A DNA stretch of 64,000 nt, taken from IMG/VR virus record IMGVR_UViG_3300036770_007283. The stretch is one strand, 5' to 3'. This document shows positions 14,378 through 21,312 of the stretch, one piece after another; the stretch's first letter is position 1, and each line of letters opens with the position of its first letter. This DNA comes from a virus (Duplodnaviria > Caudoviricetes). The translations under genes were made by a program, and so were the position numbers. The notes under the pieces are model-generated. The model had not been told where the DNA came from. It ran no database searches and saw only the letters and a list, made by a program, of their open reading frames with translations.

Positions 14378-14680
14378 TTACACTCCTCCGGTATTTTTAT
14401 AAGGATTAGTCCTATCACCATATACATCTTCAATCGCTCGATGGTCACCTTTACCTATTTTATTAACAGTTTTACGCACTTCATCTTGAATCTCTAAAAT
14501 TAACTGATCGGTTGATTTTTCAACGGTGGCTGCAATGCTAACAATTTTTTGTGATATAAAACCAGTATCACATACTTTACATTTAACCTTACCTTTCTTA
14601 AGCTCTAAATATTCTGGAATAGATAAAAATAATTCTAGATTCTCATTACAATGTAAGCAAACAAAACTATAACTTGGCAT
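14378..14680 (-). CDS. FmdB-family zinc-ribbon protein
   Basis: MPSYSFVCLHC...KCKVC with GAGGA upstream of ATG 14680. The ORF track over-extends it to 14779. Confidence 0.8.
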   Translation of the reverse strand: MPSYSFVCLHCNENLELFLSIPEYLELKKGKVKCKVCDTGFISQKIVSIAATVEKSTDQLILEIQDEVRKTVNKIGKGDHRAIEDVYGDRTNPYKNTGGV

Positions 14681-14861
14681 TAGATTCCTCCGTGGGAATA
14701 AAAATAATCTGGTCGCCCTCAAATTCCAAGTTGCCAGACAAAGAAAGATCACGAAGGATTTTCTTCTTAAACTTTGCATCAGTAATCTGAATAGTCAACT
14801 CTAATTCATTACTATCTGATAACTTTATATTTTTAATTTTTCCTACTGTTTCTTTTTTCAT
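14667..14861 (-). CDS. Hypothetical protein (~64 aa)
   Basis: Co-oriented, with overlaps on both sides; start uncertain (14861 or 14879). Confidence 0.6.
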   Translation of the reverse strand: MKKETVGKIKNIKLSDSNELELTIQITDAKFKKKILRDLSLSGNLEFEGDQIIFIPTEESNAKL

Positions 14862-15141
14862 TTCTTCTTTCATTTTCAAAAAAACTATTTAAGACTTCTT
14901 TTACCAAGGGACTCTTTTGGTTTAATAAATAAAATAGTTCATAATTATCAACCACTTCATGGTTTTTTAGTTTACAAACTTCTGCTCTTATCTTAGGGAT
15001 AAAATCTAAGGGATGGTCCGACTCTAGCATTGGATTCATAGGTAGAAGATCTATGTTGCCTTTAGAAATCTTGTAAACAATATATTTATACCTTCCGATT
15101 TTTAGAACATCATTTTTTTTCAAAGAAATTTTTTCAGACAA
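14833..15141 (-). CDS. Hypothetical protein (102 aa)
   Basis: Overlaps the dnaB stop; no motif recognised. Confidence 0.65.
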   Translation of the reverse strand: MSEKISLKKNDVLKIGRYKYIVYKISKGNIDLLPMNPMLESDHPLDFIPKIRAEVCKLKNHEVVDNYELFYLLNQKSPLVKEVLNSFFENERRNEKRNSRKN

Positions 15142-16492
15142 GACGATTCTCCTCCCCTAAATCACCCACCCAATTATCCGGCATACTTGTAACTTTTGAT
15201 TTCTCAAATTCTTTATACAGCTTGATCTCACCCTTAGCACCATCACGATTCTTAACAATATGGATTACCATATCGTCACGTAACAACTCATCATCCCTTT
15301 GTTCAATAAGCAATACAATGTTAGCGTTGTCACCAATCATCTTTGAACGACCTAATTCTTCTAGATCGTTAGACTGACCCTTGGTAGCCTTATTCCTCGC
15401 CTTTCTTTGTGCTGCGGTTAATACAGCAATGTTTTTATTACGACAGAATTCGTGTAAGTCTTCTGCAACGTGACCAACTTCTAGCCAGTCTTGTCCGAAA
15501 TCTTTGTTAGGCTTCATAATGCCAAGATAGTCTACCACAACCAGGTCGGGTTGAAATTCAGAAAGAATAGAATCATACCTAGCCTCAATATCAAGGGTTC
15601 TTGAGCCACGAGGCATGTCTACAATATAAAACTTTTTATCATACTTCTTCTGAAAGTCTAATGAGCTTTTCCATCTTTGCTTTTCTTCTGGCGTAAGTTG
15701 TCCACGCATAATTGCTTTGTGTCGAACATTAGCCATGTTAGCATCAATTCTTTGTTCTAATTGTCGTTTACTCATTTCTAGTGTAAAGTAAACTACATTC
15801 TTACCACCTTCCAACATCTCATTGTATAGATCGCCTGGCTTGTTAGGACCTAGCCAAGCATTAATAGCATAGTTCATCATCAGCAAGCTTTTACCGCTAG
15901 AAGAAGCACCAGAAATAATCATTAACTCTGATTGCTTGATGCCATAAGTATAATCATCAATCTCTGAAAAGCCTGACATTACACCAGTAGTAAGATTGGG
16001 GTTTTGCTCTGTAAACAAATAATCATTATATCTGTCCTCTACCGAATTGCTGAAATTTCCTTCCGCAAAGACCGATGCCCTCTTCAACCTTTCGATTTTG
16101 GCTGCTACGCTAATAATGTTGGAATTAAATTCTTCGATGTCTACACTTTCTTCTGAAATTGATTTTGCCAAGTTAGTTGCGATTTTGGCATTATATCTTT
16201 GCTTAACCTGATCAACATAAAAAAGTATTTCAGATTCTTCGCAAGACTCTTCTTCAATTAAAGAAATAAGCTGTACAGTATCAATATCATCTGCTAAGTT
16301 TTCTAACAAAACCTTATATGATGGTGGTGACTTATATCTGGAATAATACTTTTCAATCAGATCGAACACCGCCTTGAAATCATAATCCAAAGCTTCATAG
16401 AGGATTTTTAAGTCTACATCTCGACTTACCTTGTTATATTCTACGGGCCCTTTCATCATCCAGGATAAAATCTTTTGATCGGCTAGAGACAT
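15134..16492 (-). CDS. dnaB: DnaB-like SF4 replicative helicase
   Basis: SGASSSGKS, YFTLEMS, VVVDYLGIM, VLTAAQ, IVKNRDG. Confidence 0.93.
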   Translation of the reverse strand: MSLADQKILSWMMKGPVEYNKVSRDVDLKILYEALDYDFKAVFDLIEKYYSRYKSPPSYKVLLENLADDIDTVQLISLIEEESCEESEILFYVDQVKQRYNAKIATNLAKSISEESVDIEEFNSNIISVAAKIERLKRASVFAEGNFSNSVEDRYNDYLFTEQNPNLTTGVMSGFSEIDDYTYGIKQSELMIISGASSSGKSLLMMNYAINAWLGPNKPGDLYNEMLEGGKNVVYFTLEMSKRQLEQRIDANMANVRHKAIMRGQLTPEEKQRWKSSLDFQKKYDKKFYIVDMPRGSRTLDIEARYDSILSEFQPDLVVVDYLGIMKPNKDFGQDWLEVGHVAEDLHEFCRNKNIAVLTAAQRKARNKATKGQSNDLEELGRSKMIGDNANIVLLIEQRDDELLRDDMVIHIVKNRDGAKGEIKLYKEFEKSKVTSMPDNWVGDLGEENRLV

Positions 16493-16502
16493 TTACACTC
16501 CA

Positions 16503-17171
16503 TTATTTAGCTTGTGATTTTCTAAAATCACGACCAGATACATAGACAGTTTTTACATATTTTGAAAATAAAGAATCAACAGAACGGGAAAAATCCCCAG
16601 CCAAAACTTCCTTTAGGTCTGCGGTATTAGAGCAGATAATGGTGGGCATCTTGTTCTGAAATCTATGTCGAAAGACTCGCTCCATTGTTTGACCAAAAAG
16701 TTGTTCTGACTTTTCGGAAGGAAAGACCCATCTTGTATCATATTCATCAATAACGACAAAGTCTGTTCCAGTCATTTCGTCAAAAATGCTGGAATTATTA
16801 TCCAAAGATTTCTGGATAATATCACTCATATTGATGTATTTAGTACTGAAACCTGACATTGCTGCTGTCTTTAATAAACAAGAAGCCGCATAGGTTTTAC
16901 CAGTGCCAAAGTTTCCTACAAATGCCAGCGAGGTTCCACTTTCATAAGCTGTGCCAATGCTTTCCATTAAGGAGATAACATATTCTTTAAAGTTTGGATC
17001 ACCCTTAAAATCCTTCATGGAAAGCATCCAATAATCCATGGGAATCTCTGATTTTGCATAGGCCCTAATTCTGGCAATTTTATTTCTACAAAGCGAGCAA
17101 CTTTCGCCATTACATTCACAATCTTTCTTAATCTTCTCCTCTATTAGCGTCATCTTTTTCGGTGGGACCAT
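16503..17171 (-). CDS. DnaC/IstB-like AAA+ helicase loader
   Basis: N-terminal CEC..SCSLC zinc motif, GNFGTGKT, VVIDE, PTIICSN, SGRDFRK; adjacent to dnaB. Confidence 0.85.
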   Translation of the reverse strand: MVPPKKMTLIEEKIKKDCECNGESCSLCRNKIARIRAYAKSEIPMDYWMLSMKDFKGDPNFKEYVISLMESIGTAYESGTSLAFVGNFGTGKTYAASCLLKTAAMSGFSTKYINMSDIIQKSLDNNSSIFDEMTGTDFVVIDEYDTRWVFPSEKSEQLFGQTMERVFRHRFQNKMPTIICSNTADLKEVLAGDFSRSVDSLFSKYVKTVYVSGRDFRKSQAK

Positions 17172-17574
17172 TCTGTTTCTCCATTGTTTTTGGATTTTTT
17201 AATTGTGACATTGAAAGCGAAAACGTGGTATTCGGTTCCTCAGATTTTCCCTCTAACATATCTTCTGGAATAACGGAACCGTAAAAATCCATTTCTTCTA
17301 AATACTCCGGCTTGCCGAGCCGGGGGCGCTGGGCCACGACCCTCGCATTATTGTTGTACGAGGGGGCAGATTCGGGGTCAACCTCAGCGGGTTTTTTTCT
17401 TTCATCAATTATCATAGCGGCAACAATGTTTTCTTTGTAAATAACCAAAGAACCCATATCGCTAATTAAGACCACCTTTTCTTTGGATGAAAATTCCACC
17501 ATACCTGTGAATTCCCAACCGCCACGTAAAAATACAGAAACTAATCTGCCTTCTAGAGAGTATTTATCTTCCAT
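17128..17574 (-). CDS. Hfq/Sm-fold protein with a long acidic/low-complexity C-terminal tail
   Basis: VSVFLRGGWEFTGMVE...VVL...VIYKENI aligns by eye with Hfq VSIYLVNGIKLQGQIE...ILL...MVYKHAI. Confidence 0.72.
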   Translation of the reverse strand: MEDKYSLEGRLVSVFLRGGWEFTGMVEFSSKEKVVLISDMGSLVIYKENIVAAMIIDERKKPAEVDPESAPSYNNNARVVAQRPRLGKPEYLEEMDFYGSVIPEDMLEGKSEEPNTTFSLSMSQLKNPKTMEKQNGPTEKDDANRGED

Positions 17575-18176
17575 TATAAAATGCCCATTTCCTTTGCTTT
17601 GTTCAGAAGTTTATTCTCCACGGCTTCACTCTTAAGAGAATACATTTCTGAATAGTTTTTAATCATCTTAATGTCTTCTTCCCGCTCTAACTGATGGCGC
17701 TGAAAAATATCTGGAATGTTATCTTGACACCACTTAACCAAACTTTGAAACTTACTTTCGTTGCCTTTCTTGGCAAGGAATGCTAGATACATTCTTTCAA
17801 ACTCCACAATAATAGATGGTATTAAGAATAATCTAGTTCCATTTACAGATTGTTCACCACGACGAAATTTGTAATCAAACATCCAATTGATATAGTTATA
17901 AATTTTCTTATTTATTTCGCCACGAACCTTATCCTTCTTATCTTTAGGCAAGTCTTTATAATCTTCTGGTGCCAAAGTTCTAAAAAGCTTAGCAAAGTCT
18001 GCTGCTTCTTTACCCATCGTCGGACCCTTTCTGGCTCTTACCAATCTAAATCTTACCCCATTCTTCTTTTGATACTTGTGGCAAAAATAAGCAAGCAAGG
18101 TAATGTGCGTCCATTCAGAAAGGTCAGCCTTGATCCATTCCTCAATATTGTTAAAAAATTCTTCTTCATTAAGCAT
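17574..18176 (-). CDS. Hypothetical protein (200 aa), possible replication initiator
   Basis: All-helical-looking ORF between ung and the Hfq-like/dnaC/dnaB genes; function inferred from position only. Confidence 0.8.
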   Translation of the reverse strand: MLNEEEFFNNIEEWIKADLSEWTHITLLAYFCHKYQKKNGVRFRLVRARKGPTMGKEAADFAKLFRTLAPEDYKDLPKDKKDKVRGEINKKIYNYINWMFDYKFRRGEQSVNGTRLFLIPSIIVEFERMYLAFLAKKGNESKFQSLVKWCQDNIPDIFQRHQLEREEDIKMIKNYSEMYSLKSEAVENKLLNKAKEMGIL

Positions 18177-18852: not shown

Positions 18853-21312
18853 TCATCTTTTTTGAACTATGATTTTAAAAGCGGGTTCGTTCTCATAGAT
18901 TTTCTTTCTGATTAAGGAGTGATCCCGTAAATATCTACAGTTATCTAGAAAATCAACAACCACCGCATCTTTTTTATCTTTACCTTTGCGAATTACACGA
19001 CCAATTCTTTGTAGGGCGCGTGCAGAAGATTTACCAGAACCGGCCAAAACCAAGGCATCAAGATTGGGAATATCAATACCCTGATCAAAGATTTTAGAAG
19101 CAATTAAAACATCTAATTCGCCATTCTTCATGGCTTGGATGGCGGCTAGTCGATCCCCGGTCTTGTTACTACCATCGAGGCTGGATACCCTCAAAGTGTC
19201 TTTTAATAAGGATAAGAGATGTTTGCCATGCGAAACCTTAGTCACCAAGATTAGAACCTTTCGACCCTGAGCTACTAACTTTGTGGTTGATTTTAAAATC
19301 AAGTCATTTCTTTCTTCATTTTCCACAATAAAATTTTTATAAACTTCTTGATAAGTTTTGCCGATACCCCTTTGCATAGGAACGTCAACAAAATAAATCT
19401 TAGGGGGAACTAACCATCCTTGTTCAATAAGTGAAGAAGCGTTAAGATCAAAAAACTTTGGTCCACCTACTGATTCTATCAGGATATCATCTCCTGAATC
19501 TCGCCATGGCGTCCCTGATAATAAAAACCTATGCCTGGCCTTTACAGAATTTTTATGTAAAAATTGAATAGTTTCTGATGCAGCATATTGACATTCATCA
19601 ACAATAATCATTTCTGCATTCATAACCATATCTCTAACCATTTCTTTGTTGAGGTTTTTATCTTCTTTGTCTGGGGTTAGGTCACTATCCAAGATTTCTG
19701 CCTTACTACCAAAGGCTGAAGCGGCGCTCCAAATGGTTGCGATTGTAACTTGCTGTACATCACAATGACCATCGCCAACAAGTCCAACTTTAAGATTTGG
19801 ATAAGCTCTTTCTACCGTTTCTTTCATTTGATAAAGAAGCTCTATGCCGATAACATAGATAACAGTCCTAATATTAAACTTACCAGTAATTAGAGATATA
19901 ATAAGGGTCTTTCCAGAATTATGTGTTACGGTAAAATCTCCAAGTAAATACCTATTATCACCATCTAGTTGGAAGCCATAATAATCTCCCAAGCCCATTT
20001 CTTCAAATGTAAAACCTGTAACAAGAACGTCCTTAATTTGATTTCTTTCTGGTGCTCTTTTTCTAGATATTTTGCATGGAATTCTTGTGCAATCTCCAGA
20101 TATATGAACTCTATAATAAAGTCCAGATTTTCCATTATTGGTACAGGTACAAATTTTTTCTTTTAGATAAGCCGACATACCAAGACTTCTTGCAAGGAAA
20201 ATGACATCTTCTGCTAGTTGTTTTGATTTTGAAATATAATCATATCCATTTTTTGATAAAGAGCCATCTGTATCCAGTAATCCGGCCAGCACTTCCAGCC
20301 TCTGTTCCTCATCTCCAGTCTTGAAATCAAGTGGAATGAACTTATCTCCAGAACCTTTTCCAAATAACCCCAAAGATCTCATAATATTTACAAGTGGATT
20401 TTTGCCTATAGTCTTTTCCTGGGATCTGAAATAGTAGGTAATTCTAGATTTTCTAATAGATAAGTTATATTTTTTTGCTATATCATAAACGTATGCAATA
20501 ATTTCTGGATCCGTATTTGTCACGCCCAATTGACCTTTCACTGTACCATCGCCAAGCATTAATCCCAATAGATATGGCTCCAGTGGTAGTTCTTTTTTTG
20601 GAAAGTTAATTGGGACTCTAAAAAGTTTGTGAATGTGCTTGAAGGTTTTATTTTGTTTTTCCCAATCTGAAAACTTAATATCAATAATTTCTCCACCACG
20701 CGGATCATATTTCTCTGTTCTTGTTCTCTTCAGAGATAGGACGTGTTCTTGATTTATAATAAAAGGCGCACCCTTTGTTGGAATTATTTTAACCATTCTA
20801 TCTTGACCACGAAAAAGTTTTAGAACTTTTCTTTCTTTTGAGTCTGGACCCATTAAAATATCACCAACAACAATATCCTCTACAGATTTTGTTGAACCAT
20901 CAAACATCAAAATCTTAGTGCCCTTGGAATGACAGCCCGTTGGAGACTTTATGATTCCGCCACCATGCTTCCAGGCTTTTTTAACAATAGCTGCCTGGTA
21001 GTCTCTAACCTCAAATCCACTGTTTGGATCTAAGGTTAGGCTTTCACCATAAGTAAGAACATCCCTATTATCTTGAATCTGATAAGAGGCATCATTCTTC
21101 TTTAAGATTTTTTCAATGGCAGGCAACAAACCAATCGGGAAATAATGATTCTTGGTAAAAAGCCTTTGCCTACCATCCCAGTTACTTGCCTTATTCATAA
21201 ACTGAAATCCTTGAACAGAATAGCTTAGCTGTTCATCGATCTCATCAATAATCTTTGGATCCCGAAGTCCGATTATTTTGCACTTAACATTTCCAACAAT
21301 TATAGTTAGCAT
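18853..21312 (-). CDS. SF2 DExD/H helicase (UvsW/ResIII-like) containing an intein
   Basis: RDYQ, SPTG/SGKT, IIVDECQ, LSGTP, FDQGIDIP, QRIGRVIR. About 480 aa after splicing. Confidence 0.92.
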   Translation of the reverse strand: MLTIIVGNVKCKIIGLRDPKIIDEIDEQLSYSVQGFQFMNKASNWDGRQRLFTKNHYFPIGLLPAIEKILKKNDASYQIQDNRDVLTYGESLTLDPNSGFEVRDYQAAIVKKAWKHGGGIIKSPTGCHSKGTKILMFDGSTKSVEDIVVGDILMGPDSKERKVLKLFRGQDRMVKIIPTKGAPFIINQEHVLSLKRTRTEKYDPRGGEIIDIKFSDWEKQNKTFKHIHKLFRVPINFPKKELPLEPYLLGLMLGDGTVKGQLGVTNTDPEIIAYVYDIAKKYNLSIRKSRITYYFRSQEKTIGKNPLVNIMRSLGLFGKGSGDKFIPLDFKTGDEEQRLEVLAGLLDTDGSLSKNGYDYISKSKQLAEDVIFLARSLGMSAYLKEKICTCTNNGKSGLYYRVHISGDCTRIPCKISRKRAPERNQIKDVLVTGFTFEEMGLGDYYGFQLDGDNRYLLGDFTVTHNSGKTLIISLITGKFNIRTVIYVIGIELLYQMKETVERAYPNLKVGLVGDGHCDVQQVTIATIWSAASAFGSKAEILDSDLTPDKEDKNLNKEMVRDMVMNAEMIIVDECQYAASETIQFLHKNSVKARHRFLLSGTPWRDSGDDILIESVGGPKFFDLNASSLIEQGWLVPPKIYFVDVPMQRGIGKTYQEVYKNFIVENEERNDLILKSTTKLVAQGRKVLILVTKVSHGKHLLSLLKDTLRVSSLDGSNKTGDRLAAIQAMKNGELDVLIASKIFDQGIDIPNLDALVLAGSGKSSARALQRIGRVIRKGKDKKDAVVVDFLDNCRYLRDHSLIRKKIYENEPAFKIIVQKR
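19918..20934 (-). mobile_element. Intein with LAGLIDADG homing endonuclease (339 aa) in helicase Walker A
   Basis: Begins CHSKGTKILMFDGS and ends YYGFQLDGDNRYLLGDFTVTHN, followed by +1 Ser. Endonuclease motifs YLLGLMLGDG and LAGLLDTDG. Confidence 0.95.

What the first reader, a model, noticed from the sequence alone, without database searches (positions are those of the whole stretch)
17128..17574. Phage-encoded Hfq/Sm-like protein inside the replication operon
Seen: the first ~55 aa match the Sm1/Sm2 pattern, including the Hfq-like YKxxI (YKENI vs YKHAI). It lacks most of the N-terminal helix, has His replaced by Glu on the proximal face, and carries a ~90-aa acidic/Pro-rich tail. Inference: an RNA chaperone, or a decoy that poisons host Hfq hexamers and sRNA regulation. 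Its position next to DnaC/DnaB also allows a replication role.
Basis: partly seen in the sequence, partly recalled or inferred. Interest (0 to 1): 0.7.

Follow-up and report, generated by a model that had tools for sequence, protein, structure and literature searches.

The report
Hfq-like protein in phage helicase-loading operon
An uncultured giant phage and its many relatives encode a fast-evolving, acidic relative of the RNA-binding protein Hfq, always fused in reading order to the genes that load the replicative DNA helicase, so it more likely helps start DNA replication than acts as a classical RNA chaperone.

Summary
The ORF is real: window 17128-17574, minus strand, 148 aa. Its first ~57 residues are an Hfq-type Sm domain. 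This rests on a family profile against PDB sequences (Hfq, E 4.8e-6), an AlphaFold2 model (pLDDT ~89) and fold matches to Hfq (Z 9.5-9.9, rmsd 1.4-1.6 Å).

It is not a canonical Hfq:
- The N-terminal helix is missing.
- The rim arginine patch is missing.
- The proximal uridine-pocket positions (Hfq Q41, F42, H57) are mostly Asp/Glu.
- The domain is acidic (median pI ~5, against 9.7 for the E. coli core).
- Retained features are the Sm1 Gly, the Sm2 aromatic-Lys/Arg pair and a distal aromatic pair.

The tail is not just low complexity. It holds two motifs under protein-level selection: YGSxIPxDML and (V)DFSxSM.

In every locus examined the gene overlaps the start of a DnaC-like loader gene, which is followed by a DnaB-like helicase. 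In two relatives the upstream 200-aa gene has moved 9-12 kb away, and the Sm-like gene stayed with the loader and helicase.

Best reading (0.45): a helicase-loading or replisome accessory built like an SSB, with a small barrel, an acidic linker and a partner-binding motif. A classical RNA chaperone is less likely and a host-Hfq decoy is unlikely. It is a new variant of a known kind. The scan has not noted this before on other DNA.

The parts
17128..17574 (-). Sm/Hfq-like protein gene, 148 aa (P0001)
   Evidence: ORF and translation. Conserved family: alignments A1 of 16 and A2 of 46 sequences.
17404..17574 (-). Residues 1-57: Hfq-type Sm domain with five beta strands and no N-terminal helix
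   Evidence: AF2 pLDDT ~89. Foldseek and VIA-align matches to Hfq. Profile hit to Hfq at E 4.8e-6. Conserved across the family: G24 46/46, K/R47 44/46, Y/F15 41/46, W/H/F/Y20 43/46.
17287..17403 (-). Residues 58-96: variable acidic, Pro-containing linker, predicted disordered
   Evidence: Linker length is 24-63 residues across the family and its charge is mostly negative. pLDDT is 55-68.
17245..17286 (-). Residues 97-110: tail motif 1, [YF]G[SA]x[IL]PxD[ML]L-x-G
   Evidence: P103 46/46, L107 44/46, G99 42/46, D105 41/46. Third codon positions vary freely while the residues are kept. No other coding-frame copy of the motif was found in the window.
17194..17229 (-). Residues 116-127: tail motif 2, (V)DF[SA]x[ST]Mxx L(K)N
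   Evidence: F/L118 46/46, S119 36/46, L125 31/46.
17128..17182 (-). Overlap zone: the last ~18 codons contain the GGAG ribosome-binding site (17179-17182) and the ATG (17169-17171) of the DnaC-like gene
   Evidence: Upstream sequence read. The overlap is 14-50 nt in eight relatives. The conserved C-terminal 'DDS/GPTEK' residues are explained by the overlapping M-I/V-P-x-K-K start of the loader, so they are not independent evidence of function.
16503..17171 (-). DnaC/DnaI-like AAA+ helicase loader, 222 aa, with an N-terminal Cys cluster
   Evidence: PHROG 50, DnaC-like helicase loader, E 9e-23; Pfam IstB_IS21 and AAA.
15134..16492 (-). DnaB-like replicative helicase, 452 aa
   Evidence: Pfam DnaB_C E 1.3e-35; PHROG 19 E 4e-66.
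17574..18176 (-). Upstream 200-aa all-alpha protein of unknown fold. Its TAA stop overlaps the ATG of the Sm-like gene (TAATG).
   Evidence: More than 307 homologues. AF2 pLDDT 83. No PDB fold match. The overlap is 1 or 4 nt in all eight compared loci.
18853..21312 (-). Context: UvsW-like helicase interrupted by an intein with a LAGLIDADG endonuclease, at the head of the same gene string
   Evidence: Pfam UvsW_N, ResIII, Helicase_C, Hom_end_hint, LAGLIDADG_3.

Best explanation
This protein founds a distinct, phage-specific family of Hfq-type Sm-domain proteins. The family is a fixed component of the helicase-loading gene set (200-aa protein, Sm-like protein, DnaC-like loader, DnaB-like helicase) of a widespread clade of uncultured jumbo phages.

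Proposed mechanism:
- The Sm domain assembles into a ring, as nearly all Sm proteins do.
- The ring offers a pore lined by the conserved Lys/Arg47 and a face carrying the conserved aromatic pair Phe/Tyr15 and Trp20. These hold single-stranded nucleic acid at an origin or fork (ssDNA, or an RNA primer or R-loop strand).
- The flexible acidic tails present two conserved motifs that tether the loader-helicase complex.

This is the layout of SSB, T4 gp32 and T7 gp2.5: a small oligomeric barrel, an acidic disordered linker and a partner-binding motif. Here it is built on an Sm barrel instead of an OB barrel.

Shown here: the fold, homology to Hfq, loss of canonical Hfq sites, protein-level selection on the tail motifs, and invariant linkage to the loader and helicase.

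Inferred: ring formation, nucleic-acid binding, and which partner the tail binds.
For: 1. The Hfq-type Sm fold and homology are established.
2. Linkage. In every locus with enough DNA, the Sm-like gene is followed directly by the DnaC-like and DnaB-like genes. This holds for the window, six relatives found through the protein itself, three found through the 200-aa neighbour and 13 of 15 IMG/VR loci.
3. Coupling. Its stop lies 14-50 nt inside the loader gene, and its start overlaps the stop of the 200-aa gene by 1 or 4 nt. The Sm-like gene has no close Shine-Dalgarno motif of its own, although 21 of 43 genes in the window do.
4. A natural experiment. In the two IMG/VR records where the 200-aa gene lies 9-12 kb away, the Sm-like gene still overlaps the loader gene next to the helicase.
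5. Motif 1 of the tail keeps its residues down to 23-30% overall identity while synonymous sites vary. That is typical of a short docking motif in a disordered region (pLDDT 53-61).
6. Canonical Hfq RNA-chaperone determinants are missing, yet one pore Lys/Arg and a distal aromatic pair are nearly invariant. This suggests a retained but altered ligand site.
7. Independent precedent: thermococcal and methanococcal plasmids encode Hfq-like proteins immediately downstream of their helicase genes in one transcription unit (PMC3543421). E. coli Hfq binds DNA and affects ColE1 plasmid replication (PMC4963395).
8. A weak lead only: no bacterial SSB, gp32 or Enc34/gp2.5-type SSB was found in five related IMG/VR records, two of them estimated 94-100% complete.
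Against: - The Sm domain is acidic (median net charge -2, pI ~5) and the whole protein has pI ~4.6. That is unusual for a nucleic-acid binder and fits a pure protein adaptor or DNA mimic equally well.
- All the linked loci belong to one phage clade, so conserved gene order is partly shared ancestry.
- T4 regA shows that an RNA-binding translational repressor can sit inside a replication gene cluster (established knowledge), so position alone does not prove a replication role.
- No binding partner, oligomeric state or nucleic-acid ligand has been demonstrated.
- Divergent phage SSBs often escape profile searches.
Confidence: 0.45

Rival explanations
1. It is an RNA-binding post-transcriptional regulator: an Hfq-like chaperone or a RegA/gp32-type translational repressor. 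It would act on phage transcripts, for example the overlapping loader mRNA, or on host transcripts.
For: - Homology to Hfq, with the Sm2 aromatic-Lys/Arg pair conserved in 44/46 members and the distal-face aromatic (Hfq Tyr25 equivalent) in 41/46.
- JGI pipelines already name three homologues 'sRNA-binding regulator protein Hfq'.
- Its coding region contains the ribosome-binding site and start of the next gene, a convenient target for autoregulation.
- T4 regA lies within a replication gene cluster (established knowledge).
Against: - The N-terminal helix (which carries Hfq Gln8) is absent.
- The equivalents of Hfq Gln41, Phe42 and His57 are mostly Asp/Glu.
- There is no rim arginine patch, which is needed for RNA annealing in Hfq.
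- The core is acidic.
- The conserved tail motifs are unexplained by this reading.
- The gene tracks the loader and helicase when the operon is rearranged.
Confidence: 0.25
2. It is an acidic protein adaptor or nucleic-acid mimic with no nucleic-acid ligand of its own. The Sm ring is only an oligomerisation platform. The acidic tails occupy DNA-binding clefts of the loader or helicase, chaperoning or timing their release. This resembles the way acidic tails of SSB-type proteins or phage DNA mimics work.
For: - pI is ~4.6 for the whole protein and ~5 for the domain, and acidic residues sit at former RNA-contact positions.
- The tail motifs are conserved and the linkage to loader and helicase is tight.
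Against: The near-invariant pore Lys/Arg47 and the exposed aromatic pair Phe/Tyr15-Trp20 look like a retained ligand pocket. No mimicry has been shown.
Confidence: 0.2
3. It is a decoy that co-assembles with host Hfq and poisons sRNA regulation.
For: Only the shared fold, and strands 4-5 (the Sm interface strands) being the best-conserved part of the domain in close relatives.
Against: - It is only ~21-29% identical to Hfq in the aligned core and lacks the N-terminal helix.
- It evolves twice as fast as its neighbours.
- Its invariant coupling to the loader and helicase has no rationale under this reading.
- The host is unknown, so there is no direct test.
Confidence: 0.04

Closest known systems
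Bacterial Hfq (Pfam PF17209; e.g. E. coli, S. aureus; M. jannaschii Hfq-like MJ1435)
   Same: - Five-stranded Sm barrel, Z 9.5-9.9, rmsd 1.4-1.6 Å.
- Profile-level homology.
- Sm1 Gly, the Sm2 aromatic-Lys pair and the distal aromatic are kept.
- A disordered C-terminal extension with acidic character, as in E. coli Hfq.
   Different: - No N-terminal helix and no rim arginine patch.
- Proximal pocket residues are replaced by acids, and the core is acidic.
- Below the Pfam gathering score.
- The tail carries two conserved motifs.
- The gene is embedded in a helicase-loading operon.
Pfam PF23874 Phage_Hfq (phage Hfq-like proteins)
   Same: Phage-encoded Sm/Hfq-like domain, so phage Hfq-like proteins as such are already catalogued.
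   Different: None of the 46 family members matches that model even at E<=10. The language-model similarity to that cluster is low, at 0.76.
Zn-finger-Hfq-like proteins of Thermococcus and Methanocaldococcus plasmids (Krupovic et al. 2013, PMC3543421)
   Same: An Hfq-like gene of a mobile element lies directly beside, and is co-transcribed with, its replicative helicase gene. The authors also proposed a replication role.
   Different: These are archaeal plasmids. The Hfq-like domain is C-terminal to a zinc finger, the gene lies downstream of an unrelated helicase type, and there is no acidic tail with these motifs. No direct sequence relationship was tested here.
SSB-type proteins: E. coli SSB, T4 gp32, T7 gp2.5 (established knowledge)
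   Same: Same architecture: a small oligomeric beta-barrel, a disordered acidic linker and a conserved hydrophobic/acidic motif that recruits replisome proteins. T4 gp32's tail binds the gp59 helicase loader. The whole protein is acidic.
   Different: The barrel is Sm, not OB. The motifs are internal rather than at the extreme C-terminus. ssDNA binding has not been shown.
Eukaryotic Edc3 and Scd6/LSm14 (divergent LSm domain plus FDF motif; established knowledge)
   Same: An N-terminal divergent Sm domain is followed by a disordered region carrying a short motif that docks onto a RecA-fold helicase (DDX6/Dhh1). The Edc3 LSm domain appears among the fold matches (rank 42).
   Different: They are eukaryotic and act in mRNA decay on an RNA helicase. 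There is no sequence relationship in the motifs. This is an analogy only.

Membership tests
Sm/Hfq superfamily | Five-stranded, strongly bent antiparallel beta-sheet (Sm fold) | tested here: met
   AF2 model strands 11-56, pLDDT ~89. Foldseek top hits are all Hfq. VIA-align Z 8.6-9.9 to Hfq, Lsm and SmAP.
Sm/Hfq superfamily | Sequence-profile homology, with the Sm1 Gly and the Sm2 aromatic-basic pair | tested here: met
   Family profile against PDB: Hfq E 4.8e-6. hhalign 77% probability. G24 46/46 and K/R47 44/46.
Hfq proper (Pfam PF17209 / NCBIfam TIGR02383) | Score above the curated family cut-off | tested here: not met
   14.9 bits against 27 for Pfam. 12.5 bits against 61.7 for TIGR02383.
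Hfq proper | N-terminal alpha-helix carrying Gln8 of the proximal site | tested here: not met
   No helix is predicted, and only ~10 residues precede strand 1. Alignments start at Hfq residue ~19-21.
Hfq proper | Proximal uridine pocket (Gln41, Phe42, Lys56, His57; Sm2 = YKHAI) | tested here: not met
   Only the Lys equivalent is conserved. Positions 31, 32 and 48 are mostly Asp/Glu across 46 members.
Hfq proper | Basic rim patch (Arg16, Arg17, Arg19) needed for RNA annealing | tested here: not met
   The equivalent positions 6, 7 and 9 are Ser/Asp/Glu, Leu and Gly/Asp. Only K/R10 is basic. The domain's median pI is ~5.
Hfq proper | Distal-face aromatic (Tyr25) with a Gly-containing loop | tested here: met
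   Y/F15 41/46, G18 40/46, G19 35/46, plus an added aromatic at position 20 in 43/46.
Hfq proper | Homo-hexameric ring | tested here: inconclusive
   No usable computational result; see Tried and rejected. This needs SEC-MALS, native MS or a structure.
Hfq proper | Binds sRNA and mRNA and promotes annealing | not testable with these tools
   Needs biochemistry.
Pfam PF23874 Phage_Hfq | Match to the family model | tested here: not met
   0 of 46 members match at E<=10. The model is present in the library.
SSB-type replisome hub (functional class) | OB-fold ssDNA-binding core | tested here: not met
   The core is an Sm fold. There is no SSB or gp32 family match.
SSB-type replisome hub (functional class) | Disordered acidic tail carrying a conserved partner-binding motif | tested here: met
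   Tail pLDDT <70 and net negative charge. Two motifs are conserved, and selection on motif 1 acts at the protein level. Binding itself is untested.
Known helicase loaders and co-loaders (DnaC/DnaI, DnaD, T4 gp59, lambda P) | Homology to any such family | tested here: not met
   No Pfam, PHROG or NCBIfam match for this protein other than weak Hfq hits.

The most novel reading that the evidence does not exclude
In this jumbo-phage clade an Hfq-family Sm ring has taken over the job normally done by an OB-fold SSB or a helicase co-loader. It would bind single-stranded DNA (or the RNA strand of an origin R-loop), and its six acidic tails would dock a DnaB6-DnaC6 complex. That would make it the first Sm/Hfq protein whose primary role is DNA replication.
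Probability: 0.2. Interest if true: 0.8.

Novelty: new variant of a known kind. Interest (0 to 1): 0.55.

Why it matters
Sm/Hfq proteins are textbook RNA-metabolism factors. A family that has shed the canonical RNA-chaperone surfaces, gained a conserved docking tail and become locked to a helicase loader and helicase would point to a recurrent, unstudied link between Sm rings and helicase loading. Archaeal plasmids show a similar link independently.

It also gives a concrete candidate for the missing SSB or co-loader function in a large, environmentally widespread clade of huge phages. The hypothesis is easy to test with recombinant proteins.

Tried and rejected
- **Self-association.** Complex prediction with four copies of the Sm domain (residues 1-62, alignment A2) gave no verdict: score 0.33 against a mark of 0.42. 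It is not used as evidence either way.
- **Expression.** The look-up of sequencing runs listed no RNA holder, so nothing can be said about expression. The DNA holders are subsurface metagenome runs that may be the source sample.
- **Cultured relatives of the Sm-like protein.** tblastn of the protein against 50,697 phage records found no match at E<=1.
- **IMG/VR.** A pattern scan with the close alignment found nothing, and the broad alignment was too divergent for that tool. The family was reached in IMG/VR through the 200-aa neighbour instead.
- **Cultured relatives of the neighbours.** The 200-aa neighbour also has none. The nearest cultured DnaB relative is Bacillus phage G at 29.5% identity, and its locus shows no equivalent small gene.
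- **PDB.** The close 16-sequence profile gave no hit; only the 46-sequence profile did.
- **The 200-aa protein.**
  - Language-model leads to T4 gp59_N and Phg_2220_C (0.88) and a weak RepA hit (E 0.02) were not borne out.
  - Fold searches gave Foldseek best E 0.9 and VIA-align best Z 4.5. That is inconclusive, not an exclusion.
- **The tail alone.** It gave no usable Atlas match, and no other coding-frame copy of motif 1 was found in the window or loci.
- **Operon signals.** Promoter and terminator scans were at chance level.
- **Whole genomes.** No genome is held for the window, and the ENA, NCBI and JGI contigs could not be searched whole.
- **C-terminal 'DDS/GPTEK' conservation.** This was rejected as a third functional motif. 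It coincides with the overlapping start (M-I/V-P-x-K-K) and GGAG of the loader gene.

Full report
**What is there.** The finding corresponds to an ORF on the minus strand, window 17128-17574, encoding 148 residues. It is a real, conserved gene:
- The identical protein occurs on four other metagenomic contigs.
- A word-indexed search found 16 close relatives at 51-60% identity over the full length.
- An exhaustive search of 1.84 billion cluster representatives found 51 relatives. Apart from two spurious repeat proteins, they were 59-186 residues long, with no fused forms.
- The record is a 252.7-kb contig of an uncultured jumbo phage. The window also carries a tubulin, an intein-containing UvsW-like helicase, a uracil-DNA glycosylase and a PrkA module.
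- The DNA is held by subsurface metagenome runs.

**Is it Hfq-like?** Yes, at the level of fold and superfamily homology.
- Pfam Hfq matches in register but below threshold (E 0.02, 14.9 bits against 27).
- 23 of 46 family members hit Pfam Hfq, best E 2.9e-6, and 16 hit the Sm-like DUF6897.
- A profile of the 46 members finds Hfq chains in the PDB at E 4.8e-6, and nearly all of its 41 hits are Hfq.
- hhalign against E. coli Hfq gives 77% probability and aligns residues 11-54 with Hfq 21-63.
- The AlphaFold2 model has five strands between residues 11 and 56 at pLDDT ~89 and a low-confidence tail.
- Foldseek's top 30 PDB matches are all Hfq, rmsd 1.1-1.4 Å over 46-49 residues.
- VIA-align gives Z 9.9 to M. 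jannaschii Hfq (rmsd 1.6 Å over 55 residues) and Z 9.5 to E. coli Hfq (1.4 Å over 56 residues).

**How it differs from Hfq.** I mapped the 46-member alignment onto E. coli Hfq.
- Retained:
  - the Sm1 glycine (G24, 46/46);
  - the Sm2 aromatic-basic pair (Y/F46; K/R47, 44/46);
  - the distal-face aromatic (Y/F15, 41/46) with its Gly-Gly loop;
  - a further aromatic at position 20 (Trp in 30, His/Phe/Tyr in 13).
- Not retained:
  - the helix that carries Gln8;
  - the rim arginine patch;
  - the equivalents of Gln41, Phe42 and His57, which are mostly Asp or Glu.
- Charge: the domain is acidic (median net charge -2, median pI ~5, against pI 9.7 for the E. coli core). The whole protein has a median pI of 4.6.
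- Known phage family: none of the members matches Pfam's Phage_Hfq model PF23874 (the model is in the library).
- Conclusion: this is a separate family within the Sm/Hfq superfamily, and a classical sRNA-annealing activity is unlikely.

**The tail.** The tail is not merely acidic low complexity.
- A variable linker of 24-63 residues is followed by two conserved motifs: [YF]G[SA]x[IL]PxD[ML]L (P103 46/46, L107 44/46, G99 42/46) and (V)DF[SA]x[ST]M (F/L118 46/46).
- Codons of motif 1 differ freely at synonymous sites between relatives, so selection acts on the protein.
- No other coding-frame copy of motif 1 was found in the 64-kb window.
- The apparent third conserved block at the C-terminus is an artefact. 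It overlaps the GGAG and the M-I/V-P-x-K-K start of the next gene.

**Context.**
- The gene order is: 200-aa protein, Sm-like protein, DnaC-like loader (PHROG 50, E 9e-23), DnaB-like helicase (DnaB_C, E 1.3e-35).
- The 200-aa gene's stop overlaps the Sm-like start by 1 or 4 nt, and the Sm-like gene runs 14-50 nt into the loader gene, in all eight loci compared.
- This order holds in six relatives reached through the Sm-like protein and three reached independently through the 200-aa protein.
- It also holds in 13 of 15 IMG/VR loci, each with the loader and helicase following.
- The two exceptions are informative. There the 200-aa gene is followed by unrelated genes. The Sm-like gene lies 9-12 kb away, still overlapping the loader gene next to the helicase.
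- So the Sm-like gene segregates with the loader and helicase.
- It evolves about twice as fast as its neighbours: 23-60% identity to the window protein, against 44-81% for the loader, helicase and 200-aa protein.

**Interpretation.**
- The best-supported reading is a replication accessory acting at helicase loading.
- Its architecture is a small oligomeric barrel, an acidic disordered linker and a conserved hydrophobic/acidic motif. This is the architecture of E. coli SSB, T4 gp32 (whose tail binds the gp59 loader) and T7 gp2.5 (established knowledge), with an Sm barrel in place of an OB barrel.
- Independent precedent comes from archaeal plasmids, which place Hfq-like genes directly after their helicase genes (PMC3543421). 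E. coli Hfq itself binds DNA and influences ColE1 replication (PMC4963395).
- Five related IMG/VR genomes, two of them 94-100% complete by CheckV, show no bacterial SSB, gp32 or Enc34-type SSB. This is only a lead, because divergent phage SSBs escape such models.
- Ring formation, the ligand and the tail's partner are all inferred.
- The acidity of the core is the main argument for a rival in which the protein is a pure adaptor or mimic.
- An RNA-binding regulator of the operon (RegA-like) remains possible.
- A decoy of host Hfq has no specific support.

**Novelty.**
- Phage Hfq-like proteins are catalogued (PF23874), and three homologues of this very family already carry an automatic 'Hfq' label at JGI. 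So 'a phage Hfq-like protein' is not new in itself.
- New points are the distinct family, its loss of canonical Hfq surfaces, the conserved tail motifs and the obligate coupling to a DnaC/DnaB pair across a large clade of huge phages.
- I found no paper describing this.
- I rate it a new variant of a known kind, of moderate interest. Interest would be high if the SSB or co-loader reading proves right.

Noticed in passing
window 17574-18176 (-): The 200-aa protein upstream is a core gene of this phage clade. It has more than 307 homologues at 53-79% identity, on contigs up to 422 kb including Tara samples. It is confidently all-alpha (pLDDT 83) but has no match to any solved fold. It may be a replisome organiser.
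   Followed up: partly
IMG/VR records behind L024-L029 (G003-G007): No bacterial SSB, T4 gp32 or Enc34/gp2.5-type ssDNA-binding protein was detected in five related jumbo-phage records, two of them estimated 94-100% complete. The clade's SSB is unidentified.
   Followed up: partly
window 18853-21312 (-): The UvsW-like helicase is interrupted by an intein with a LAGLIDADG homing endonuclease. Relatives have intein-free versions of 443-506 aa (L006, L007, L009, L016-L018), and one other (L014) also carries a Hint domain.
   Followed up: no
window 16503-17171 (-): The DnaC-like loader starts with a conserved M-I/V-P-x-K-K and a Cys cluster (CxC...CxxC), reminiscent of the zinc-binding N-terminal domain of DnaI-type loaders.
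   Followed up: no
L020:5713-7112: One IMG/VR relative has about 1.4 kb inserted between the loader and helicase genes, while the Sm-like/loader overlap is kept.
   Followed up: no
L022:4597-5439 and L027:4628-5923: In two relatives the 200-aa gene is followed by other genes instead. One has a small hydrophobic ORF plus a ClpP-like protease. The other has an aminotransferase-like gene. A 9-12 kb block has been inserted between the 200-aa gene and the Sm-like gene.
   Followed up: partly
window 14378-15141 (-): Three small ORFs (about 100, 65 and 100-130 aa) between the helicase and prkA are present at the same place in all relatives examined. They have no family match except a weak zinc-ribbon hit.
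   Followed up: no
window, whole: About half of the minus-strand genes (21 of 43) have a GGAG/GAGG/AGGA motif 4-18 nt upstream, against 7% background. GC content is 34%. The unknown host therefore probably uses Shine-Dalgarno initiation.
   Followed up: partly
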